Assembly (NCBI RefSeq): GCF_030684315.1
Contig: NC_081360.1
Coordinates: forward strand, 86,851,780 to 86,915,779
Direction: 5' to 3'
DNA from: Stegostoma tigrinum
Lineage: Eukaryota
Length of the DNA: 64,000 bases
Shown piece by piece: positions 15,901 through 36,900 of the stretch. The number at the start of each line of letters is the position of its first letter. Positions within the stretch are counted from its first letter, which is position 1. Both the position numbers and the translations under genes were made by a program. The notes beneath the pieces were generated by a model, which made no database searches, was not told the DNA's origin, and saw nothing but the letters and a program-made list of their open reading frames with translations.

Positions 15901-18900
15901 TTGCACTGATGCCAATTGTGATCTTGCTTTTCCTGATCTTTATGTATCAGGAATGAAAGACAGTGAAAATGCCAAAATTTTCTATCGGTTTGTAAAATGA
16001 GAGAGACAGAATGGTAAGCGATCACAAATTTGGCAATTTTATTATCGCCATAAAGCATTACTTTGTCAGGAATGGATGAGTTGCACACAGAGTCAAGCTC
16101 TCATTGCTTCCTTCCACTAACATGCTTTATTGATAATCTCAGTTGATCATCTTTGATGCGTAAGTGTGTTTTTAACCCCAATCTTTACATTTATCTGTGA
16201 GCGATATGTTAATTTGTGTTAAATCACAGCAATGTTGTGTTTTAGACTCCTATCTATTAGATCTTGCTTTGAGATAGCCACAGGCTCAGACTTATTCATG
16301 AGAAATGCCCAGCTGAGACTTACAACAATGCATATTATTGGAAGAGAACAGGAGTGTTTGACTTTGCCTATAACGCATATTTTCCTGACAAAGAAATGCC
16401 TAATAGTGATAGTCAGCAGAACAGAGATTTTAATCCTATCAGTAAAGGCTGAAGTGCACGCAGGTTCCAATAATTACAGGGCCAATTGCCAAATTTACAA
16501 ACCTTAGTACTTACCCCACTGGCCAAGTCTGTATTTTCTACAGCTAGTATCATGTTCTTATCTCCATAGACAGGCACTGAGATCTTGCAACCTTTCAAAT
16601 ATTCTCTGTCCAATTTGTAATCCACCTATTACACCCCAGAAAGAGATTGAATTAGTAACAGTAAGTAAACATCAGCATCATGCAGTATTACAGTAACTCA
16701 AAACAGGGTACTTGAATTTAACAATCAGATGTTCTTCTCCTATAGCTTTCAATTCAAACTTTTTGAACGTTTCTTTTACCTTTATTTCATTGATCCCATC
16801 TAACAATTTGGTACTTATTGTATAATTATTGATAGCAATTAATTTTCAATGACAAGTCACCACTCTAGTGTCATTGATCAATGGAATAACAAAGGTAAAT
16901 AAAGTGGCCTTTGATCTTTTATTACCCAGTGACCCTGATGTGCAAATAAACTGTTTGCCTTTCATCAAACCAATTCTTTGAGATTAGTATTATATTTGTT
17001 GGTTCTCTTTCTGTTTTAGGCCATTTTTTTCAGTTTTGGGCTTTAGTTATCAGTTCAGTCGTCTTGTTTTACAGATTCTATCAGCAATTAGGTCAGCAAA
17101 ATATTGGCCAGGCTTAGTCTGAAGGATTGTGTGACTTGCTCTATTTTAGGGGATCATGTGTACAGTTACTGAACTATTTTACGCATCATTGAACAAAGTG
17201 AATATTCAGTAATAGAAATGTTTAGAAATACAAGTACCATACCTCAGATAGCAAGAAATTAATTACCTGTTGGTGTTGCATTACTAGCTACTTTTGTGAT
17301 GTAGAGTGACGCCAAAAGTGCAGGTTCAATTCCTGCATCAGCTGTGGTCAGCATGAAGGTCCTAACTGCTCAACCTTACACCTCACCTCAGGTATTGTGA
17401 CCCTCAGGTTAAGCCCACAACCAGCTGTCTCTGTTCAATGAGAAATTGGCCCTATGGTCCTCTGGAACTATATTAATATTACTAACTAAAGAGGAGAGGA
17501 TGGTGTTTTGAAAATATCATTACTAATTCAGTAGGCCTAAGCTAAAATTCTGTGGACATGGGTTCAAATCTCCCACAGCAGCTGGTTAAACTAAATGTCA
17601 ATTAATAAAATTGGGATACAAAGCTGATTGCAGTCATTGTGGCCATGACAATTACCATCCATTTTCATAAAGACCCATATGATTCACTAACCTTACACAA
17701 TCTGATTTACATGTGACTCCAGGCCCACAGGAATATGGTCAACACTTAATCTCCCTCTGAAATGGCCTTGCATGTCACTCAGTTCAAGTGCCATTAAGAA
17801 TGTTTAACAAATGGTGATCTTTGCAGTGACACCCATATCCCATGACAGAATAAGGGGGAAAAAAATCTGCTTTGCTGAGTTTAAGCAGGTGTAACATAAA
17901 GAGTGTAAAATGAGATCCCAGTATTGCATATTACCATGATTTAATATGATGTATCTATCTACCTACAGGTACAGCTTGTTGTCTCAATTTGAAATTCAAA
18001 CTCTGCTATTGACTAGTCATAGTTTTCACCTGGGTCCAACTCAACTTTATAGTAGCCTGTGAATTTGAGGTTGGTTTGACAAAGATTGATTGTATATTAT
18101 AGAAATACACTATAACAATGTGCACAGAAAATTGTGATATCTGCATACCACACAGCAATTTAGTGATTCTCTTACCTCACTCTGCTGCTGTGAGGCCTTG
18201 TAAGCCTGTACAAAGTCAGGTCTGTCTGCAGTCCACATCCATTTGGCTTTGGTGGCCTCATACTTCTTCTTGTAATCAAGCTACAGATCAAGTGATGGAA
18301 ATATCATTAAAACCAGAGATGCAAGTCACAATATGATAATTTTGATGAAAAGTTTCAATGAGCTATCTGGGTCAACTTAATTCCCAAATTTTGAAAATTT
18401 GTCCAGCATTATTACTATTTTTCTTTCATAAAGCTGACTTAATATTAACTTCCTTTTTCTCATTGCTTGTCAAGACAGCAATTTGCAATGGGGTACAGCT
18501 TCATGGGCACTGGCAGGTGTGTCATAATATGTACCAGTGACTGCTCCTTCCTGCTTCTACACAGTGGGTATTGGTTTGATGCTGGGTGATAGTTGAAAAC
18601 AACAATGAGGAGGCATGTTTATAGGGTTACTGAAACAGTGGGATGTATTCATTCAAACATCCAATCGTCAGCCAGCATATTTATTAACAGGGAGCATCCT
18701 GATCTAATCAGATAGTCTTACTACACCTCTCATTCAGACAGTTTTACACAAGGGTCAATGGATGATGATTAGCAGGGAAACCCCAGTTCTATGCTACTTT
18801 GAAAATGAAGCAAGCATGTTTTTCTGTGAAACTATATCAGAAAATCTTAAAAGAAAGTACTGTAGAAACTGTGAGACACAATAGGATAAGATATATTTAC

Positions 18901-21900
18901 CACAGAGAGTATGTCCTCTGATAAGTCAATATCTTCCAAAACACTTCTCCAAGCAGCAGTATGTCTTTACTGCAAGTGACTGGTATAATTATCAAGTTTA
19001 ATATCAGTTTTAACAGCTGGTCCAGCATCAAAGCCACATTCTTAATCTTTCTGATATGTGAAGCATTGTGATCATGATATAACTACATCTGTGCAGTTTG
19101 TAGATTATTTAGACCTGCACAAAAATACTTTTTCACTTCAAGATGCAGCAATAACACTGGAGCAGCTTCTACCTAACCCACCAATTTCACACTGTAGAAA
19201 AAGGCGGGGGATGGAATGAGCAACAATTTGAACAGAAGGGACATGGCTAGAGGGCAAGGGAATAAAAGACACGGGTAGGGGTAGGGGAGACAAAATGGAG
19301 GACAAAATTCTTGGCCTGAAGTAGCCGACTTCAGCATTGAATCCAAAAGGCTGCAAAGTGCCTAAAGACGAAATGGGGTGCTACTCCCTCAGTTTATAGC
19401 ATGCTTAGGATCAGGTATGATGCTTGTTTTATGTTAGGTCAATTTTTTGCTTCAGTGAAGTCAGAGAACAGCAGTACTGGTGGGGTGGGGTGATGGAAGG
19501 GAGGGTTCAAATGTGAATCTAGCATTCCACTTTAGTTGATGTCAAGTGAGTTACGCTAAAAATTGCTCTTGATACTTCAATTTCCCTCAACTTATGTATC
19601 AAGGCAATAATGCTTGCGCATATGTATATTGCCCCAGCACTTAAACAACACAAGTATTCATAAGGTGTAACGACATCACAGTCACAGTGGCTGTGAATTG
19701 TCAGCTGATGGGGGTCTCGCCTGCTGGTAAGTGAACAGAGTGGCTCATCGTGAGGTATACATTCCAGGGCTTAGGTTTATCTGGGCAGCTGTCCACTGCT
19801 GAAAACAGCCTTGCAGCGCAATTTAACCCCTGAGCCACCATTAATTCTTGTCTTGCAAGAGCAGCCATGAATCCCTCCTCAGCCCCTTCCACCTCAAAGC
19901 CTATTGGTTGGGGTGGTGGTTGGGGTGACGGAGGTGTTCCTGCTTTCAGGAGATTGGTGCGAGGCCTTTCCTTCAATCAAACTAGCACAGCCACCACATT
20001 TCCCCACATGACAAGCTCCATTAAATCCAACGCACATTGTTTGAAAATGGAGAAGTCTTTGCAAAGTTTACATACCTTCGTGGGACATGCTTTCATATGA
20101 AACAGTGAAAGATATGTTAGGGGGAACTTACTTATTCCCAACCATGATGCATACTCAGTGACTGCAACTTCAAAATTAATTAGATTGATAATAAAGCACT
20201 TTGGAGCATCCTGAGATTGTAATAGATGTTGTGTAAATATTAGTCTTTTCTCTAATTATTTCAAGTCAAAACATACTGAAAAAAACTTACATTAGTTGTG
20301 TTCTTGTATGCACTCTTGGCAGCCCTAATCGAAAATGCATCACCGTGAATGTTGCAATTAGCTTTGTTGCGTTCATAATTCTCTTTGTATTTCAACTGTC
20401 AACAAAAGAGCAATGATTGAAATCCTGCCAATCATGTAAGAGTCCTTCCATCAGCTAAAGTTTCTCTTTTAGTGCATTTTGTGAGTTACTTAACTAAATG
20501 TCCTTAGCGTATAACTGTACAATGCAAGTTTTACTACGGTATAATTAACTGGCAACTGAATGCTGAAGTTTATTGTCTTGACATTCCTAGGGAGGCAAAA
20601 TACAAAGCAGAATTTCCCCTTCCCTGGAGGTGGCAAGACGGGGAAGTATTTGAACAAATTGGCCCTAGCAAGTTATTCACCTCCTTCACACCACCTTCTG
20701 CAATTTAGCTGTGAGTTAGTAAGAAGATCCATTGGGGACTGTCGCGATCCATCATCAAGTAAGGCCCTTAAGTGGTCAATGAATGACCAATTAATTCATT
20801 GCCTCCGCAACATGCAAGATAAATGGCTTGTTTCCCAACTGGGAACTAAGGAGTCCTGCCTGTCTAGTCCAAACAACCTCCAATTCTTCCAATCTGGGGA
20901 CAATTGGAGCTGCAGATGATGAATAAGGGACTGCTTTCCGAAGGCTACCCACCTGTTCATGCCCTTCACAACTCTGACCTATTTCTCCCCACAATCCTCC
21001 TCCACCCTTCCAGTATTGGCAGTAGATTGCAACGTTGAAATTGCTTCAAAGCAAAAAGCAAAGTTATTTCTATGACTGAGTGTGGTGAATACTTACATCA
21101 CTAATTTTGTCCTTCACACTTCGCATGTGTAACAGCATCGGTGTGTCATGGATAGAAGTATAGCCCTTAGCTCTGTCCCGGTTATGCTCCAGTTTATATT
21201 TAATCTGCAAACACACAAAAAAGGTTTTCTCATAAAATGCAATTATTGTGCAAGTTGTTTTCTCTGAATTACATGAAATTCATCTTTACCTGGTTCCTTT
21301 CTATAGATGTGCAATTAAATATCAAAGATTTTCCTGTTGCCAAAACTAATGTAGGTAATTGTCATGACGAATATCTAAAGATTATTTTGCACTGTAATTA
21401 ATTGAATTCAAAAATTTGAAGTTAGAAATCATGCAACAGATCAAGAACTGAAAATGTGGAACCATTTGTAATTTTGGCAAAATGTGGATTCAGTCAATAG
21501 TACTAAAAGAACTTGGTCTATCATGCTTGCTGTTGTTTTAAAGGCAAATATGACAAAGATACCTAGGAGTGCAGGCCCTTGAAGGTGGAGTCGCTGGAAG
21601 ACAGAGTGGTGAAGAAGGCATTTGGCACACTTGCCTTCATTAGTCAGTGCATTGTGTTTAGGAGTTGGGATGTCATGTTACAGCTGTACAGGACACTGGT
21701 TAGACCACTTTTGGAACACTGTATTCAGTTCTGGTCTCCCTGCTATAGGAAAGATGTTAAACCTGAAAAGGTTCAGAAAAGATTTGTCAGGATGTTGCCA
21801 GGGTTGGAGGGTTTGATCTAGGGAGAGGCTGAATAGTCTGAGGCTGTTTTGGGTAGAGCATCAGAAGCTGAGGGGTGACCTTATAGAGATTTATAAGATC

Positions 21901-24900
21901 ATGAGGGTCATGGATCAGGTGAATACACAAGGTCTTTTTCCTAGGGTCAAAGAGTCCAAAATTAGAGGACATAGTTTAAGGTGAAAGGGGAAAGATTTAA
22001 AAGATTTTCATGGAGACGATGGTGTATGTGTGAATCAAACTGCCAGAGGAGATTGTGGTGGAAGAGGGTAACATTACAACATTTAAAAGGACACTGGATG
22101 GGTACATGAATAGGAAGGGTTTAGAAAGATATGGGCCAAATGCTGGAAATGGGACTGGACCAGGTTAGGACATCTGGTTGGTGCAGATGAGTTGGATCCA
22201 AGGGTCTGTTACCATGCTGCACAATTCTATGACTGTTTCCATGGCCATTATCGTAAACTCAGATTAGCTGTGGACACTTTGGACTTTTAATTGTAAACAT
22301 GATTTTGAAAGAGAAGATACAGCCACAAGATGGTTGATGATATAAACTTAGTCACTCTTTAACAGAAACCCTGGAATATCTGCACCTGAAGGTGTCACAC
22401 ATGCTTCAAATGAATAAATACAGTACAAATAGAACTGTAATCTCCTACAAGTATCTCGGAGTGTGAACTTGATGGGAGAAAAGCCTAGGGGAGAGGCATA
22501 TTTGCATCTTCGCCTTTTAAGAGCACACAGAGACAAAGGTTAAAAGTAGGTTTCAATCCTGGTCTGTGTGTATTAGTGGAATGAGATGCTTATGTGTGGT
22601 AGTGGGCTGAGTTGCTCAGCGTAATATTAGACTGTGGGTTCTAGTGGAATGAGGTACTAAGGTGTAACATCTTGGGTTCAAGTGCTAACATACTGTGAAT
22701 GTCACTGTCAAACAACAATCTACTGGTCGCCTCTGCATACAAAGTAAAGGAACACTCAGTGATGGATGCCAACCAGCAATCCAGTTCTAAAGGGAACAGG
22801 ACAAAGGAATTTCAGCTAACCTGCAAAGCCAAGAAACTTGAAATTGACTACTCAACGATCATCATTACACTATTTACTCTTCACGCATCAACTAGAAACT
22901 GATTCATGTATTGTTTAAATTTTCTCTTTTCTTGGACTCACTTCTCATTTCTAATCTGTATATGCATGAGTTATAATTTCATCTCATTATTAATAAGTTC
23001 ATTCATTTGTTAACTCAAGGAAGCCAGGTTAATTAGCTCTGTTTAAATCATAAATTTGTTTTATCTGGAAGAAAAGCATCAACAAGGAAAGGATCCTTTT
23101 TAATTAATCTTGTTGTGGCCAACTAAAGGGCAGGTGAATAAAGAAGTGGAACTAATTCATCCCTCCCCATCAGGAAACTTGACAACTTGGAGTATCCTAT
23201 CTGGATCTGTAATAAATTGAGGAACTTTACCTGGGGGCTAGTTGTAAATCTGCTGTTTTTGTCCAGGCAGTGGCAAAGAAACACAAAGTTCTGGATATAT
23301 CCACATGAGGCTGACTATAATAGCTGCATTCATCCCTCTCTGCCTAAAGGTCAGCAATCTGAACAAATCCATATGTGTATAATGGGTATAACTTCTTCTG
23401 CACTCAATCAAGGTAACTACTATTTAAACAGACTTAACTGTATGTTTAAATATAGATTCATTGCATTAAAAACTTAACTTACATCACTGATGAGCTTCGT
23501 CACGTTCTTAGTTCGGATATTGTCAGGAGTCTCAAAAATGGACGTGTATTTGTCTTTTGCCTTTTCGTAGTCCTTTTTATAAATCCACTGTATACAGCGA
23601 GCATAAAATTAATGTAGAGCAATCAATGCAAACCCAGTGGGCCAGATCTTGCTGAAAGAGTATCTCACATCAACTTGCTTGGATGTGCCATGGAAGAATT
23701 CCAGGACTGGTAGAACTTGCAGCTGGTACCTCTGGCCCAGAGATTCTCATTAAAGCTCCCTTTAAAGATAAGCAATTGCCCAGAAAGACTCAGGCTGGAT
23801 ACTAGGGCACTATTAGCACCATGTTCTAACCATCTGAGCTAACCAACCACCACTAGACCTTGCTGAACACTTACTATCAGCAAATCAGCAACAATATGTG
23901 ATGAGGAAGAAATATCCTGAAAAATGTGAACCACCAACTGTTTGCTGGCAATTTACATCTTTCTGTCATTAGCTTTTGTGAAAATTGCATCTTGTCCTTA
24001 ACCTGCCCTTGACATTTATGAAGTTGCTCTAGTTGCACATTAATTGCCCATTAAACTTGTCACAGAAAGATTAGGTTTGCAACTAGCAGTGGAGTACTCT
24101 CTCATTTCACAATTGTTGATGATTGACATCAACTTTTCTTTCCCTGTAAGAGAATAAAAGTGAGTCTCAATTCTTTAGGTTGTGAATTGCTTCAAAATGT
24201 ATTTTTTAATCTATTTTCTCCCTTCTGCTTCTTTTCTCCCTGTCTTGCTCCCTCTTGCTCACACAGTGCAATTTGACTTTTATTTCTGATCCAGAAAATA
24301 AGTGAACATTGAAATGATTCACTCTAGTTCACTCTCCTGTGGCATTTTTCTGTTCCTTCCACAATGCTCAAATCCCATTGGTTGAACAGATAAACTTGTT
24401 AACAGGGGTTGAGATGCCCCATTGCCCTTGCAGTACCAATTGGTATTTCCAACTGTTTTGCAAGTAAAGTATTTTAAAACCCAAAGCTAAAATTGTGCTA
24501 AGAAGGTCAAGCAAGATGCCACATTTCATCAAAATCTGGCCCAGCATTAAAAAGAGGTGAATGAAATCAACAGAATATCAACCAAAAAACATGCAGAAAA
24601 TGTTTGAAGAAATTGACAGCACGGTGTCACAAATACACACAGCAAGATTGAGTTAGTGCTTGAGTTAGTATAGAACATTTTAGAAATTAATCCCAATTTG
24701 ATTCTCCAAAATACTGATTAATCTATTTCCAAAAGAACATTTTAAATGATTACTGTTGAGTGTTCAATGCATTACTTTAAAACAACCCAAAAAATCTAAA
24801 GGAGGTAAGACAGTGCACAACATCGAGCAGTTTTACCTGGCTCCCTAAAATTGAGTTGTATATGGCAGTCAGCATATCAGGCCGTAGAAGTTCATTGCAT

Positions 24901-27900
24901 CCTCGCCTTAATTTGAATTTGGCTTCAGACTTATATGATTGCTGTCGATAAAAAATGCACATGCATGCAAAGGATGATGGAACATAAGCCAAGCCAGAAA
25001 AAGACACCAGTGTTCATCATCCTCGAACTCAAGTCACTGTATCAGTGAAAAGGTTCTCACCGGCTTCAATAGCCCTACCCAGTAAAGCATTTATTTGGGT
25101 AGATGACATCCACATAAAGCATACCAGCAGATGACTGCTGGTTATCTTGTAGATGGCCAGCATTCTAGTGCAAGCTCCACAGAATTACCTGGCTACTTAG
25201 TCGCCCCGACCTTTTGGCTAGAAGGTTTCTAGGATCATCCAAAACCAAGGTATACTTGCTCTTCTGCTTCTCATAGAAAGCTTTGTATGACTTCTGCTCA
25301 GAATATGGAGATTTAGTTAAAACAATGCATTCTTTTCAATATTTTGGTAAGGGGAGTGTGAGGTGAGGGGAATTAACTGATTTAACTGGTGCATGGGGAT
25401 AAAATATTTCAATATCTGGCTCTAGGACAAGTCATTGCAGTCAGATTTTCTCATAGGATTCAATCTTCTAAGCCTTATCTGAAAATCTGACGCTGGCTAC
25501 CTGAAGTCAGAATCAAAATGTTGATCCCATTTCCGATTACCAGTCACTTGTATCTAAAGAAAGAGAATGACACTTGTGCAGTTTTAAAAGGGCTATATCC
25601 ATGTTTTAAAATTCTTGGCAACAGCTCCTGCAAAAGTGAGCATATATTAGTATTTTTCTTGTAGTCATAGGAGTTGCTGTAAAGACATACCTCAAAATGG
25701 AATAGAAGTAAATATTACTTTAACTGATTAATTGTAATGGTAGAACTCTTAATCATAAAAATAATCAACATGTTTTTTCTCTGGCTGAGACTTGAGTGTT
25801 TTTGAATTTTAATTGTGTCGTTTTTAGCCTCTAGCAGGTTGGAAGTGAGGATCATAACGATTAATGAACTGCCTGGGATGCCAGATAAAGCAAATGATGA
25901 ATATTAACATTCTTTTTGCTTCTGTCAAAAAAACATTTAGGTAGTGTTTGGTTAGATAACTTGGAACATGTGTATTTTAATTACTTACATGGAGATCTAC
26001 AGCCTAATGATACAGTTTATCTTTGCTCTTAATTATTTTCTCAAGCACAGTATAGATTAAAGACGTTACAATTTCATCCTTCATTTCAGTTTTTTGAACA
26101 GAACTGTTTCAACATTCGGGAAGAAGAGATTTAATTAAAAGTGAAACAACGGTGCTAAGGAAGTAGTTTTATTTATACTTGCGGTAAATGGAAAGTCGTA
26201 TATATTTTTACCTCCATTTTTACCTTATAACAATTTCTTGTGTCCTCTATGTAGCAGTTAAGAAAATTGCAAAGAGAAAAGGTGTGGTAAGGAAATAAAT
26301 ATCATTAATGACTATAAAAGCTAAAAGCTATTTCCTACCGTTTGGATTTTGATTCATTTTATCAATGAAGGCTTAAAAAAAAACCTTTTATTAACACAAC
26401 ACACTTCTGTGAAGAGTTCAAGCTCTATACAATTGAGAAAGTCTCAAGCTGCCACAAAGCACCAGACCCATTAAGAAATATTATTGGTACATTAAATAAT
26501 GTTGGTATTCATTAACAAAATCTACTCAGCCTAATATTGACATTTTCTATTCTGTTTATCCTTGAAAGCAAATTCAAAAAAGATAATGCTGTTAACAGAT
26601 TTAGTGTCTATATTTTGGGACAAAAATATAGATCAAGAATGTCCAAGTTTTATGTTGGAAGATGTGTACCAGAGAGCCTTGAGAGTGGTGTGAGGTTGAA
26701 ACCCATGTTCCCATAACCAGTTACCGATACAAACACATCTTGGCACTATGACAAAGGATTCATCCACCGTACGGGTGACAGTGCTAAAACCCTTCAGAGT
26801 CACTGAATACAAAATAGGAGCCATTAACAAGTAAGGGATGCAATGTGTATAGGAGTGAATTGTTTGGGCTTTCGAAAAGGCTTGAAGGCTCCAACTGGCC
26901 CAAGGGTCACATGTTGGATATTTGTAACAGAGACAAATATGGCCTTATTAATTCTGTCCGATTTGCACAAACCTCATCTAAAATTGCTGTTGCCGCCTGA
27001 GCATGCCGGATGTGCGGTGTATCTGCAGTGTACTTGAAGTTGTTTCTTAGTTTTGCAACTGATTCTCGGTACTTGTACTGTAAAAGAAAATATTACAGAT
27101 AAGTAAATTAGACAGCAAAACCTCTCTAAGAGCAGAAAACAGAACAAAATATCTACTTTTTTAGCATATGTTTCATAAATCAGTAAGTAGTTGATTGTTC
27201 GGAATTGTAGAACAGTGAATTCCTTCTAATGGTTTGTTAAATTTATGGTGTCACTGCCTGCTGCTTAGACCACTATTGACCATATTTAATCATATCACAT
27301 TGCAAACGAAACAGATCTTAGGACCTCAGAGTTAGTACGAACTGCAGATGCTGGAGTCAGAGATAACACAGTGTGAAGCTAAAGGAACACAGCAGGCCAA
27401 GCAGCATCAGAGGAGCAGGAAAGTCAATATTTCAGATCGAGGCCCTTCTTCAGAAATGGGGGGAGGGGGAAGGGAGCTGAGAAATACATACAGAGAGGAG
27501 AGATGGGGCTGGGGAAGGTAGATGTGATGGTGATAGGTGACTGCAGAACGGGAGTGGTGGGGATTGGTCAGTGAGGTGGGAGGGGCGGATAGGTGGGAGA
27601 GAAGATGGACAAGTTGTGTCAGGTCAAGGAGGCAGAAATGAGAGGGAGGGTTGAACATGGGTGAGGCCGGGGTTGGGGGGTGTCGAGATTTTGAAACTGG
27701 TAAAATGCAAGTTCAGGTCATCGGGCTGCAGACTCCCGAGGCAGAATACGAGGTGCTGCTCCTTCAGTTTGCGTGTGGTGTCATTGTGACACTGGAGGAG
27801 GCCGAGGGAGTGGGAGGGGGAGTTAAACTGGTTCATAATTGGAAGGTGTTGTCACTTGTCTCATCCGACTTCATCCCATGACTAACCCTCCCTCTTATCC

Positions 27901-30900
27901 CTGTCTCCTTGACCGGACGCAACTTGTCCATCTTTTATCCCACCTATCTGCTCCTCCCACCTCACTGACCAATCCCCACCACTGCCTACCTGCACTCACC
28001 TACCAACATTCCATCTACTTTCCCCAGCCTAACGCCTCCTCTTTCTACTTATTTCTGAGCTCCCTTCCCCATCCTCAGTTCTGAAGAACAGTCCCAATCC
28101 AAAACGTCAATTTTTCTGCTCCTTTGATGTTGCCTGGCCTGCTGTGTTCCTTCAGAACATAGGACCTGACTTGTGAAATGGTGATTATAATTTAACACGT
28201 GTGCATGTTCAGAGTGTTACTCCACATTTTCCTGATCCCTCAGTTGTCAATTTCTGCAATGTTTGAAATAAGACAACCCTGTAGAATGGAGAAGAGATCG
28301 AGAAATAATTGGGGCTTGTAACAAAAGTACTGCAATAACTATTGGAGATTTAGCCTTCATATCGATTAGATGAATCAAAAATGTAAGCAGAAGCAGCCTG
28401 GTTGATGAGTTCATAGAGAGTATTTATGACAGCATCATAGAATGTTACATTCTGAAACCAAATAAAGAATAGACAATTTTAAAACTGGTAATGTACAATG
28501 AACTGTTGATCCCATGGCAAAGGTGCCCTTTAGTTAACAGAATAGAATGTCATGTTCAGGTTGAGGGTTAGAAATGTGAGTCTTAACCTAGTGCTTTTAA
28601 CATAATTAAAGGTAATTACAGGGGTATGAAGACTAAGGTGGCTAGCATGAATCAGGTTAATGGATTAAATGGTAGAGAAGCAGTGGCAGATACTTATGGA
28701 GTGATCTGATAACTCTCAAAAAGGATACATTCCATTGAAAAATAAAGATTTTTGAGAATAATGCACCATCTGTGGCATGATAAACTTTTCTTTACGTAAG
28801 TAATCCGTGATCCCAGAAAACAGCAACCAGAAAATGTGACATTTCCAGCCAGAAATGGGAGTGGGGCTTCTTGCAAGGTTTTCAACTGATCACTCAAATC
28901 GTTTTGGTCATTGAAGAAAAGTTCTGTGTCACAGTTAGTTGAGGAAGGATATAGCATTCAGGGAAGTGAGTATGTGACAGGAGACAGTGCTACAGTTAGT
29001 ACTGCTGGAAAGGCAGCTGAACTATACAGATTCTGTGTAGGAAACTCAGTGAGGAGTTGAAAGCAGTTGGATGTTGCCATGCTATTAGAAATTTGGGAAG
29101 ATATTCTGAAAACTGGTGGGCAGATAAATGTTATAGTTAGGATTCAGAAGAAGAACAACAGAGCTGAGAAGGTAGGAAGCTCACTGGCTGTGAGGTGGGG
29201 AAGCTGTGAGGTAATCAGAAAAGGCTTGCCAGTATTAAGACCTCAGTGCACTGGGATTGTAGTGTCTGCAGAGCTCACAAGCAGTATTTGTTTAGACCAT
29301 AAGGCTTATAAGCTGCAGGAACAGAAGTTGGCATTCAGATCTGCTCTGCCATTCAACAAGATCATGGTTGATCTGATAATCCTCAACTCCACTTTACTGA
29401 CGTTTCCCCATAGCCCTTGATTCCTTTAATGATTAGATATATGTCTATTTCGGGCTTGAATCTACTTAAATCCCAACTTGACACCCCCCTGAGATAAAGG
29501 AATTCTTCAGATTCATCACCTTCAGAGAAAAAAAACTTCCTTATCTCCGACTTAAAAGGGTGACTCCTTGCTTTGAGGTTCTGCCTTCAAGCCTTAATCC
29601 TTTGATCCTAGCTAGAAAATCATAATGAAATTAAATAGCAAATAGTGTACAGAAATAGGCCATTACCCAAGTCACCGAAGTTCCACAGGACCTTCCTTGC
29701 ACCACACCCCATCTAATCTTTTCAGCCTTCTATTCATATCTACATCTTATGTTTAAATTGTATTTCCTTAAACTAGCTATGTGTGTGTGTGATGAGAAAA
29801 TATGTGGTAAAGACAGAATCAGACTCAACTGTCATAATCCCACAGTGGAATAGGTTACTTTCTACACAAGAACGTATGACATTGGAATTGGAGTGAGACA
29901 GCTATCTGTGGAATTAGATAAATTAACATGAATTGGCACCTTCAGTAGAGAAGAGAAAATGAAAGTGAAGTTGAAATTAAATATTCTTACCAAAAATAAA
30001 GGAGCCCTAATGGTCAATAGTGTGTGGAGGCATAAGACTGAAGACTGACAAATATATTTCAAGTTTGTCGACAGCAGGAAATGCTGAAATGTGTGGCCCT
30101 AAACAAAGGCGAAGAGATGTTTCTGAAGAAGAGTCTAGGCCCGAAACATCAGCTATTCTGCTCCTAAGATGCTGCTTGGCCTGCTGTGTTCATCCAGCTT
30201 TACACTTTGTTATCTCAGATTCTCCAGCATCTGCAGTTTCTACTATCTCTGAAGAGATGGCTGGTTCTGCGAAGTGACTAACTCACTCACATGAGCATGC
30301 CAGGTTATACAGCAAAGGTGCACATTCTTACCTGGCTGTAGAGCTCTTTGTTCTTTTCTGCCAACATCAAATCAGGAGTGTCCCATGCATAGCAACCAAT
30401 TCCTCTCAGCCATCCCAAGTCTTCTTTGTATTTAACCTAGTTGGAAAATAATCATTTTTATTTGAGGTGTCTGATTTTGGGCATGTATTTACACTTTGAT
30501 GAAACATTCACATTTTCTGAAAATGAAAATAAGAACTTTTAAATAGTTAATTTCAGTACTTTAAACACTGAACACAGAGAATGGTGGATTGGAAAGGACC
30601 AGAGAGAAAAAAAATTAAGGTCATCCGACCGCTCCCTTCTTGAGAGGCTGTGGAATTTGATGGAATAACGGTCATTTCCTGGTCATGGGTGGGTATATGC
30701 AAGCGTGAGACCCAAGCAGACAAAAAGCAAGTCCATGCCCACACATGGCTATGTGCCTTTTTTAAAAATCATTCAGAGGATGTAGGCATCACCAACTAGG
30801 CCAGCAATTATCACCCAGCCTTATTGCTGAGAGGGCAGTTAAAAGTCAACCACTTTACTGTGGGTCTGGATTTACATGTAGGCCAGGCCTGGTCAGTATT

Positions 30901-33900: not shown

Positions 33901-36900
33901 CTACCATTAACGTGTTTCATTAACACAAATTGGCTGTAACATGATTGATGAATAGCACATGCTGTTTGGATAACACAAACTTTCTGCTTTACAGATATTG
34001 CAATTTTCTATAGCTATTTTCCAAAATACAATTTTCTACAGCGCAATTTTCCATAGCACGAGGTCACGCAAGAATGCAACTATTGTGTTATAGGAGAACT
34101 ACCTGTAATATATCTTTCCACACTGAAGAACACAACAGTTTTTGAATATTCTATCATCTTACACATTGATACATCAGCTATTTTGAATTGATAACTTTTT
34201 TTTTAATCTTTCTGACCGTAGTCAGAAATTATATTCAATACATATATTGCTTTGGCATCACATAAAACCTTCTTTCAGTTTTTGCTTAGAAGCTTTGAGA
34301 TATCAACGAGTGTTAAGACTTTTAAATATAAGAATTATAATTTTCATTTAACACCTTGTCCAACCTCACCTGACTCTGTATTTTCTGGCCATGTTTGGCT
34401 CGGTTTAGATCCACAGTATCAAGCCTTGTTGTGTATTTTGTCTTTGCTTCATTTCCTTGAGCACGGTATACCAACTAAAATTGACAAGAAGCAAATGAAA
34501 GCATCAATTATCTTGTTAAAATGTGGCACACGTTATGTTTTGTCCTTGTTCAGATATATAATAAGTTTGGGTGTAGCACATGTACCAAATTTGTCATCCT
34601 GTTTCAAGAGTGTCCAGGGGGAGCTTAATCCTGTCAGGGTCTACATTTTGCTCGGTTAGGAATGTACACCCATGTCATTGCCATGACAAATGAACCTTTC
34701 AAAACTGATACTTATAGATTTTTTGCTGGAAGACAGTAGGTAGAGAAATGGAGTTAAGGTATTATTAAGACTGGCCCTCAGCACTGTCGACTTCCTTGGC
34801 TCATATTGGATTGTCAGTTGTGTCATAGAAATTTGATTGAGTTCCAATCTTGTATCGGCAAGCAAATCACATTAGAGTGTAATGAACCCACTGATAAGTG
34901 CTCTAATCTTCCTCCTTCACAAAGAATGAGCTGATCAATGTAAAGTTCACAATTAAGGACTGAAACTCATGCTCAGGGCACATAAGATAACAAAAGGTCC
35001 CTCAAAGCAACATGACTGGCCAAAAAGGTGATATATATTTTGGCATGGAGAATATTGGTGCCTTAGATTGGAAGTGTAGAGATTCAAAAACAAATTTAAG
35101 CTCTGAGAAATCTTACAGTGTGTGATCACAAGGTTTCATACATAATGTCAAACAAATCACAAAATCTTCAGCAAGGTTATGACTTGTGATGTACTAGCTG
35201 GCATCTTGATGGTCCCTGTATTAAGTTCAATGCCGAGCGCAATGATTAAACATTAACCAGTGAATAATTCAGATCCTTTTATTGTGTTCTTGCCAGAAAG
35301 AGGATGAGCCCATTATAAGGTAGATCACCTTTCTTGAATTCTGAGATGTAATAAGATACATTCTCAAGCTCTCTCCCCCTGAAGATTGAACTTGAGGTTA
35401 TGATTCCATTCTTATTTGCATACCATGAAGTGGTGTATTTAAAGTTATACACTTACATTGCTCAAGTGAGTTTTCAGTTCCGTCACACGTCTATATTCAG
35501 GAGTATCAAGAACTGAAGTATGCTTGTCACGTATTTTTTTGGCAGCTTTGTCATAGCCAGTCTGAAAGATACACACAAAAATGAAGTTTAAAATTTTTTC
35601 TTTAAAACTGGACTGGGAGGATAAATATTTTCAGAATTACCTCTTACTATCTCAGGAGTTACATGTTTACCCTCTGTAAAATAAGCTGTCAAAATGAAGG
35701 ATTAACTCCACTTTTGTCACTCTACAGATGATGCGAGATCAACTGAGCATTTCCAGAATCTATGGTTTTATTCCAGAATTTCACTGTTCACGGTGTTTTC
35801 CTGTCATTTACTTAGAGGTAAGGCAGAGGAAACCATAGGGCAGCTCTCTCATTTCTCTCTGGTGCTTGTTTAACCTGAGGTCCACTATGGCTCAGACAAG
35901 GAGTGAGGTTGTGAAGGTGGGACCTTCATGGTGATCTCACCTGGTGCAGGAACTGCACCCATGTTGTTGGCATCACTCTGCATCAGAAGCAGCCATTTTG
36001 TGACTGAATGGAATTTATCTCTGGAATTCCCTGTTCCTGGTCATCATCCATGATCTTAGACTGATAATTTTTTTGCTAAGTTAGAATTCGCTTTTACGGC
36101 ATAATTTTAAGATCACAATAACTGCATGGTTCAAATCTTGGGTCTCTCTTTATTCCACTATTCTATATGTTGCTATTGAATCAAATAGCAATGGCTCGTC
36201 TTTGCGAGTACATTATTATTTCCACACAAAAGTCTTTGAATTACAAGTACTTTCTAACACCACAAGACAATTTACTTGAAGAAGAACAATAGTATATCTA
36301 TATTACGAGATAAAGAAAACATACCCAGAATTTGTGGAAGTCACGCACTCGTATCATTTCAGGCGTTCCATACAAGAAGCATCCAATGCCCCTCAGCCAC
36401 TGGAGATCTTCCTTGTATTTATTCTATATAAGAAATAGTCACAAACTTAGCACCATTCAGAAAACATTAAGGGGCAATTTAAACAAAATGTATGAATAAG
36501 CAAGGACAGATTTAATAATTACATTGCTAGTGATGATGCCAACATATCGGTGATGGAGTAGCTCAGGAGTGATGGGAAGGGAAATCTTCTGACCCTTGAA
36601 CCGGAAGTAGTCCGACTTATATGCCAGCTAAAAGAAGACAACAAATCAAATCATTTAATGCTGTTCAGCCAATAAAGTATGCTTGGTTAAATTATTGAGA
36701 CAAGTTCATTCAATTCCTAAGCTTACATCACTGATTGCCTCCTGTGTAGCTTTGACTTGGCGAAGTTCTGGAGTGTCATGCGTTGGGTGAATCTTGTCTT
36801 TGTGAGTGTCATAATGCAATCGATACAGTCGCTGCAATAGGAAAAGTATGAAATGCATCAAATATTCACCTCTTGCACAGTGATCTTTGCTGATCAATGT

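What the first reader, a model, noticed from the sequence alone, without database searches (positions are those of the whole stretch)
24837..25293. Probable mutually exclusive exon pair equivalent to human NEB exons 143/144, present in a cartilaginous fish
Seen: two 105-nt phase-0 exons lie 247 nt apart. The WLKGIG-type motif recurs every 7 modules from w3 to w9, w15, w22 and w29. From w29 to w37 there are 8 modules unless only one of w31/w32 is used, so the window's own register implies mutual exclusion. Known: human NEB exons 143 and 144 are mutually exclusive and developmentally regulated. From memory, their peptides (KKYRADYEQRKDKYHLVVDEPRHLLAK... and RKYKSSAKMFLQHGCNEILRPDMLTALYNS...) match these two exons. 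Inference: the switch predates the split between cartilaginous and bony fishes. The 247-nt intron is too long for simple steric exclusion, so regulation is likely active.
Basis: partly seen in the sequence, partly recalled or inferred. Interest (0 to 1): 0.7.

Follow-up and report, generated by a model that had tools for sequence, protein, structure and literature searches.

The report
Shark nebulin's ancient either-or exon pair
A shark's nebulin muscle gene carries counterparts of the two interchangeable human exons 143 and 144, and spliced transcripts from related species use one or the other; the pair's great age is already published, and the only fresh hint is a conserved motif that likely lets RBFOX splicing proteins steer the choice.

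Summary
Observation confirmed. On the minus strand, two 105-nt phase-0 nebulin exons (w31 25293-25189, w32 24941-24837) lie 247 nt apart, and the 7-module register runs 7,7,7,7,8 unless one is dropped. They match human exons 143 and 144 one to one (20/35 and 23/35; crosswise 6-7/35; by eye). Assembled contigs of five public runs from related organisms splice w30 to w31 or w32 and either to w33; in the four runs there is no w31-w32 join and no double skip. The window is a shark. The age claim is right but known: a 2021 table dates this event to Vertebrata, and a 53-species study including three cartilaginous fishes reports both versions in most species. Frame and splice-site type cannot enforce exclusion, and steric hindrance is unlikely. 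My lead, untested (about 0.4): RBFOX-type TGCATG sites in the w32 polypyrimidine tract, also present in a bird locus, repress w32 and favour w31, whose purine-rich acceptor is identical over 10 nt in shark and bird. This scan's index held no earlier nebulin finding.

The parts
25189..25293 (-). w31: 105-nt nebulin exon, orthologue of human NEB exon 143 (S21a; mouse 127)
   Evidence: 20/35 to human exon 143 (by eye); 22/35 to the bird L001 exon; spliced w30-w31 and w31-w33 joints
24837..24941 (-). w32: 105-nt nebulin exon, orthologue of human NEB exon 144 (S21b; mouse 128)
   Evidence: 23/35 to human exon 144 (by eye); 23/35 to the bird L001 exon; spliced w30-w32 and w32-w33 joints
24942..25188 (-). 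247-nt GT-AG intron between the two exons; never seen spliced on its own; 78-nt AG-free zone; branch-point-like motifs at -44, -101, -105, -142 and -174
24960..24969 (-). overlapping pair of RBFOX-type motifs (TGCATGCATG) at -28/-24 of the w32 acceptor; candidate switch element, function inferred
   Evidence: TGCATG in the last 60 intron nt at 2 of 44 window acceptors; bird L001 has TGCATG at -11 and two more mid-intron
25294..25303 (-). purine-rich tandem (NAGNAG) acceptor of w31, TTCTGAGCAG, identical in shark and bird
   Evidence: 10 identical 3' intron bases versus 3-4 at the 4 other orthologous acceptors; strength rank 10 of 44 from the weak end on a window-trained matrix
26973..27077 (-). 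w30: upstream shared exon (human 142 position); weak donor GTTTGT
23483..23587 (-). w33: downstream shared exon (human 145 position)
30332..30436 (-). w29: WLRGIG module, upstream register marker
   Evidence: Pfam Nebulin 23.2 bits
16515..16625 (-). w37: YLKGC module, downstream register marker; 8 modules after w29 with both exons, 7 with one

Best explanation
These are the shark orthologues of the mutually exclusive NEB exons 143 and 144: spliced transcripts of related organisms carry w31 or w32 between w30 and w33, which keeps the seven-module super-repeat in register, and the choice is likely steered by splicing proteins, most likely RBFOX binding in the intron between the two exons. Shown: exon anatomy, register, one-to-one orthology and the either-or joints. 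Inferred mechanism: w32 is the default exon and w31 is held back by a weak, conserved, purine-rich acceptor. RBFOX bound at TGCATG just upstream of w32 would block the w32 acceptor. Because the same site lies downstream of w31, it would also promote w31, so one factor would flip the pair. The stated confidence is for identity and mutual exclusion; I put the RBFOX step at about 0.4.
For: Register 7,7,7,7,8. Orthology: w31/ex143 20/35, w32/ex144 23/35, crosswise 7/35 and 6/35 (by eye, human peptides). Computed against bird L001: 22/35 and 23/35, crosswise 10 and 9, same order w30-w34. Transcripts: X2 has two parallel 159-nt contigs, w32 at depth 125.7 and w31 at 97.8, each joined to w30 and with the same w33-like loose end. 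X9 has two parallel 162-nt contigs (301.7 and 226.8) with the same flanks. X1 has w30-w32-w33 and X7 has w31-w33. X4 has w30-w32 and a contig joining w31 to w33. No w31-w32 or w30-w33 joint appears in the uncut joint table for 4 of 4 runs. A published shark super-repeat has the w31 peptide (35/35 by eye) followed directly by w33. RBFOX lead: TGCATG pair at -28/-24, found at 2 of 44 window acceptors. Bird TGCATG at -11. 15 of 22 exon-144-bearing ORFs can encode GCATG in the 15 codons upstream, versus 0 of 20 downstream and a 15.8% background. The position rule and the rise of RBFOX1 in myogenesis come from passages of PMC5840707. Exon 144 is the early default in human myotubes (PMC6200726).
Against: The runs are Logan contigs: rare joints are dropped, RNA status is the tool's guess, tissue is unknown, and organisms A-D are not the organism (E) whose runs hold the whole stretch. 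I laid 5 of 19 listed runs. X4's joint table was cut (224 rows hidden), and X9's joints are read from loose ends. In X1, w31 appears only in an unspliced contig at depth 5.8. For RBFOX: no binding or knock-down data. The motif sits at different offsets in shark and bird, and the intron flanks do not align better than shuffles (p 0.15-0.39). The ORF test is 'can encode', on related and mostly teleost-like sequences with TG repeats. Much of the mouse and human literature has 143/127 fetal and 144/128 adult or fast (passages of PMC11525221 and PMC9153194), the opposite direction to a simple RBFOX-up model. One factor does not by itself explain why double inclusion is absent.
Confidence: 0.9

Rival explanations
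1. The pair is mutually exclusive, but other proteins (MBNL, CELF, QKI, PTB, hnRNP A1/H, or exonic enhancers) make the choice and the TGCATG sites are secondary. Confidence is for the mechanism step only.
For: Two ACTAAY motifs 168-180 nt downstream of w32 and many YGCY motifs. TG-repeat-like translations upstream of teleost-like exons. A CTGT(A)GGAGC element follows the w31 donor in shark and bird. Few base changes inside w31/w32 in run X2 (1/210 versus 31/429 in four flanking exons, p 6e-5). The published direction of the switch is inconsistent with a single rising factor.
Against: ACTAAY is absent from bird L001. The donor-side element is not significant against shuffles (p 0.24). The exon-conservation signal is weak in X9 (17/206 versus 30/220, p 0.09), absent between shark and bird (71 and 69 versus 70 of 105 for w33), and biased because the runs were found with these very exons.
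Confidence: 0.4
2. Long-range RNA pairings loop out one exon: the w30 donor region pairs with the w31 donor region (skipping w31), or the w32 acceptor region pairs with the w33 acceptor region (skipping w32). Confidence is for the mechanism step only.
For: In the window the first duplex is -19.0 kcal/mol (rank 7 of 946 donor pairs) and the second is -24.7 (rank 1 of 946 acceptor pairs).
Against: Found after the fact, with window sizes chosen. Neither pairing is kept in bird L001 (-14.2 and -9.6). The two duplexes share no arm, so they do not compete. No docker common to both exons or both species was found.
Confidence: 0.12
3. Steric exclusion: the w32 branch point lies too close to the w31 donor for the intervening intron to be spliced. 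Confidence is for the mechanism step only.
For: The intron is short (247 nt), and distant branch points do this in other genes (recalled; PMC5740500 gives under 50 nt for 9% of human clusters).
Against: The nearest branch-point-like motif is 74 nt from the donor, and 11 AGs lie between -235 and -82. The intron is 654 nt in bird and 668 nt in human (from coordinates), with AGs at -37 and beyond in bird.
Confidence: 0.04
4. The exons are not mutually exclusive in this animal: both are included (an 8-module repeat), or one is a dead or independently skipped cassette.
For: Double inclusion would be in frame, so nonsense-mediated decay would not remove it. Run X1 shows no spliced w31. No run of organism E itself was laid as RNA.
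Against: Clean either-or bubbles in X2 and X9, both exons spliced in organism B in two studies, and no w31-w32 or w30-w33 joint. Both exons have intact frames and splice sites.
Confidence: 0.03

Closest known systems
Human NEB exons 143/144 (S21a/S21b); mouse Neb exons 127/128
   Same: Same position in the penultimate super-repeat, same order, same 105-nt size and phase, one-to-one peptide match (20/35 and 23/35 by eye), either-or splicing (PMC6200726, PMC7370890).
   Different: Intron of 247 nt versus 668 nt. The only S-x-K serine inside human exon 144 (residue 6, my assignment of the reported kinase C site) is Glu in w32 and Phe in the bird locus, so that site is not a universal difference between the isoforms. 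Tissue and stage pattern in sharks is unknown.
Tandem exon duplication-derived substitutions (Martinez Gomez et al. 2021, PMC8373072), event 142 = NEB
   Same: The same event is catalogued there with last common ancestor 'Vertebrata'; 84.3% of the 236 events are shared with sharks.
   Different: That work dates events from annotation and TBLASTN. The rows I saw give no shark transcript joints and no intronic elements.
RBFOX-controlled mutually exclusive exons such as MEF2D alpha1/alpha2
   Same: A UGCAUG in an intron beside a muscle mutually exclusive pair; upstream binding represses and downstream binding promotes (passages of PMC5840707).
   Different: For MEF2D, RBFOX control was shown by experiment. 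For NEB 143/144 it is only inferred here, and the sites lie between the exons, next to the second acceptor.

Membership tests
Nebulin (NEB) super-repeat region | about 35-residue repeats with S(D)xxY motif, Pfam PF00880 | tested here: met
   44 exons, 48 modules; PF00880 above cut-off on 3 of 7 exons tested; named nebulin hits for w2
Nebulin (NEB) super-repeat region | WLKGIG-type motif every 7 modules | tested here: met
   modules 5, 12, 19, 26, 33, 41; the last gap is 7 with one exon of the pair
NEB exon 143/144 orthologues | each exon closer to its own human or bird counterpart than to the other, same order and flanks | tested here: met
   human by eye 20 and 23 versus 7 and 6 of 35; bird computed 22 and 23 versus 10 and 9; w31 versus w32 10/35
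Mutually exclusive exons | each exon spliced to both shared neighbours | tested here: met
   joints w30-w31, w30-w32, w31-w33, w32-w33 across runs X1, X2, X4, X7; parallel contigs in X2 and X9; related organisms, assembled contigs
Mutually exclusive exons | no double inclusion and no double skipping | tested here: met
   no such joint in 4 of 4 runs; contigs drop rare forms, so this is met only at the level of common isoforms
Mutually exclusive exons | tissue- or stage-regulated ratio | not testable with these tools
   tissue labels are not on record; the runs differ (X1 w32 only; X2 and X9 both) but contig depth is not a measure of expression
Cartilaginous fish origin | near identity to named shark, ray and chimaera nebulin, far from bony vertebrates | tested here: met
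   60-residue stretch over w41-w43: whale shark 60/60, thorny skate 57/60, elephant shark 56/60 (by eye); bird exons 13-23 of 35 and 26 of 36
RBFOX-regulated exon | conserved (U)GCAUG near the exon | tested here: inconclusive
   present in shark (-28/-24) and bird (-11), compatible in 15 of 22 ORFs, but the offsets differ and only one other full intron was seen
RBFOX-regulated exon | RBFOX binding and a splicing change on RBFOX loss | not testable with these tools
   the two Rbfox muscle knockout papers tried were not held
Steric (branch-point proximity) exclusion | branch point under 50 nt from the upstream donor, with an AG-free stretch to the acceptor | tested here: not met
   nearest motif 74 nt from the donor; 11 internal AGs; motif scan only, no lariat data
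Exclusion by frame shift and decay, or by U2/U12 incompatibility | exon length not divisible by 3, or mixed U2/U12 sites | tested here: not met
   both exons 105 nt; donors GTAATT and GTAAAA with AG acceptors, no U12 donor consensus (consensus recalled)

The most novel reading that the evidence does not exclude
A single RBFOX element in the exon-144 polypyrimidine tract, paired with a weak exon-143 acceptor kept letter for letter from sharks to birds, is the 450-million-year-old control of the NEB 143/144 switch, whose regulator the papers I read leave unnamed. It would mark where intronic variants in nemaline myopathy act and where an antisense oligonucleotide could flip the isoform.
Probability: 0.35. 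Interest if true: 0.45.

Novelty: already known. Interest (0 to 1): 0.17.

Why it matters
The headline, an ancient NEB 143/144 switch present in cartilaginous fish, is true but in print, so it would not surprise a specialist. Exon-144 splice variants cause NEB myopathy (PMC11525221, PMC8239344). PMC6200726 leaves the trans-acting factor open. The short 247-nt shark intron makes a compact minigene for testing RBFOX control.

Tried and rejected
Word-index protein search with w31 plus short flanks gave 7 candidates and no hit; this is weak evidence, since only proteins up to 2000 residues were searched. The w2 search returned 19 proteins, none a named cartilaginous fish, so the taxon was settled from a paper's supplement instead. 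The PDB sequence search with w2 gave only two phage coat proteins, taken as chance. No listed run is on record as RNA; I relied on GT-AG joints in the contigs, not on labels. The first read-laying was swamped by repeats and hid 224 joints; it was repeated on a repeat-poor stretch. Long-range pairings looked strong in the window but failed in the bird locus. The CTGTAGGAG repeat after both bird exons (p 0.002) is not repeated in the shark (p 0.74). Excess base conservation of the two exons is biased by how the runs were found and is absent at shark-bird distance. Steric, frame-shift and U12 mechanisms were rejected. Literature searches for a regulator of this pair and for shark data found none naming RBFOX for NEB 143/144. 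Two Rbfox knockout papers were not held, and their splicing tables may already list Neb. Donner 2004 and 2006 were not read. The lamprey claim behind 'Vertebrata' was not checked. The scan's own index gave 8 unrelated notes. No structure or complex prediction was run, because the claim does not rest on binding.
Full report
Observation. The gene is nebulin, on the minus strand. The two exons are at 25293-25189 (w31) and 24941-24837 (w32). Each is 105 nt, phase 0 and bounded by AG and GT, with a 247-nt intron between them. The WLKGIG-type motif falls at modules 5, 12, 19, 26, 33 and 41, spacing 7,7,7,7,8; dropping either w31 or w32 restores 7. Each exon has one exact copy in the genome.

Organism. 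A 60-residue stretch over w41-w43 matches the whale shark row of PMC7754682's alignment 60/60, thorny skate 57/60 and elephant shark 56/60 (by eye). The window is a shark.

Orthology. The supplement of PMC8373072 lists the human exon peptides and coordinates. By eye, w31 matches exon 143 at 20/35 and exon 144 at 7/35; w32 matches exon 144 at 23/35 and exon 143 at 6/35. The order is the same, and the human intron works out at 668 nt. A pattern scan of metagenome contigs gave one locus, L001. It holds orthologues of w30-w34 with their introns and is bird-like: its exon-143 peptide equals the golden eagle row. Computed identities are w31 22/35 and w32 23/35, crosswise 10 and 9. w31 and w32 share 10/35. 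A named teleost protein carries a w31-like module directly before w33 (P0026), and an unnamed one carries a w32-like module directly before w33 (P0020).

Splicing. Of 19 runs listed, I laid 5: X1, X2, X4, X7 and X9, from organisms A-D. All are Logan contigs, RNA status is guessed, tissue is not on record, and none is organism E, whose runs hold the whole stretch. In one search the joint table is uncut. X2 shows two parallel 159-nt contigs, w32 (depth 125.7) and w31 (97.8), both joined to w30 and ending in the same w33-like letters. X9 shows two parallel 162-nt contigs (301.7 and 226.8) with identical flanks, read from loose ends. X1 shows w30-w32-w33, with w31 only in an unspliced contig of depth 5.8. 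X7 shows w31-w33. X4 (joint table cut) shows w30-w32 and a contig bridging w31 to w33. No w31-w32 joint and no w30-w33 joint appear in the 4 runs. Contigs drop rare forms, so this shows the common isoforms only. The 'Shark' sheet of PMC7754682 Table S2 has the w31 peptide followed directly by w33.

Mechanism: what is excluded. Both exons are multiples of three, so decay cannot enforce the choice, and the splice sites are ordinary GT-AG. Steric hindrance needs a branch point under about 50 nt from the upstream donor (PMC5740500). Here the nearest motif is 74 nt away, 11 AGs lie between -235 and -82, and the AG-free zone is 78 nt. Two long-range duplexes rank high in the window (7 of 946 and 1 of 946). 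They were found after the fact, share no arm and are not kept in the bird locus.

Mechanism: what I favour (inferred, about 0.4). The w32 polypyrimidine tract holds TGCATGCATG at -28/-24; only 2 of 44 window acceptors have TGCATG in their last 60 nt. The bird locus has TGCATG at -11 and twice more in the same intron. Among ORFs that run through exon 144 and its flanks, 15 of 22 can encode GCATG in the 15 codons upstream, against 0 of 20 downstream and a 15.8% background. Three of the 25 hits were left out (one unrelated, two with no upstream flank). These ORFs are related to each other and the test is only 'can encode'. The w31 acceptor is purine-rich and identical to the bird's over 10 bases, against 3-4 at the other four exons. 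RBFOX represses from upstream and promotes from downstream, and rises in myogenesis (PMC5840707); human myotubes start with exon 144 and add 143 later (PMC6200726). One site between the exons could therefore close w32 and open w31. Against this: other reports have 143/127 fetal and 144/128 adult or fast, the offsets differ, the flanks do not align above shuffles, and there is no binding or knock-down evidence.

What is known. The pair and its exclusion are established in human and mouse. PMC8373072 dates the NEB event to 'Vertebrata', which I read as shared with lamprey from its text; I did not check lamprey. PMC7754682 studied 53 species, including whale shark, elephant shark and thorny skate, and states that both versions are present in most species, without naming which in the passage I saw. 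Searches found no paper naming a regulator for this pair. Two Rbfox knockout papers were not held, and their supplements may bear on this.

What I saw of each paper. PMC6200726: parts 1-2 of 4 of the text. PMC8373072: passages, sections 7 and 17, and supplement rows. PMC7754682 and PMC5740500: passages and supplement rows (one scanned file of PMC7754682 could not be read). PMC11525221, PMC7109182, PMC11153343, PMC7561204, PMC9013439, PMC4465641, PMC7370890, PMC9153194, PMC8239344, PMC5840707 and PMC8327911: passages only. Donner 2004 and 2006: nothing, only as cited by others. Alpha-tropomyosin steric exclusion, the U12 consensus and the kinase C pattern are recalled.

Verdict. Real, orthologous and mutually exclusive; already known, including its age. 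Interest 0.17. The one testable addition is the RBFOX-type element and the conserved weak acceptor (probability 0.35, interest 0.45 if true).

Noticed in passing
window 25291-25299 (-): The w31 acceptor is a run of tandem AGs (GAG, CAG, AAG). The contig joints use the middle one; the neighbours would add or drop one residue.
   Followed up: partly
window 24924-24926 (-), w32 residue 6: The serine of the only S-x-K motif inside human exon 144 is Glu in the shark exon and Phe in the bird locus, so the reported kinase C site is not conserved (assignment of the site is mine).
   Followed up: partly
window 24652-24669 and 24590-24595 (-): Two ACTAAC (QKI-like) motifs and a third TGCATG lie 168-247 nt downstream of w32; ACTAAY is absent from bird L001.
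   Followed up: partly
window 25174-25182 (-); L001 just after both exons: CTGT(A)GGAGC follows the w31 donor in shark and bird. The bird repeats CTGTAGGAG after its exon 144 as well; the shark does not.
   Followed up: yes
window 25158-25191 with 26943-26975, 24936-24981 with 23582-23627, and 25154-25188 with about 23708-23737: Predicted RNA duplexes that would mask the w31 donor or the w32 acceptor; strong in the shark, not kept in the bird.
   Followed up: yes
window 16626-16685 (-): The w37 acceptor is the only other one of 44 with TGCATG in its last 60 intron bases.
   Followed up: no
window 36325-36423 (-), w22: This W-motif exon is only 99 nt and lacks the usual S(D) end, and the next exon begins TGY; a short, atypical module inside an otherwise regular super-repeat.
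   Followed up: no
window about 21550-22200, 27300-28350, 29300-30300: High-copy repeats in the introns draw thousands of contigs from all four runs; not classified.
   Followed up: no
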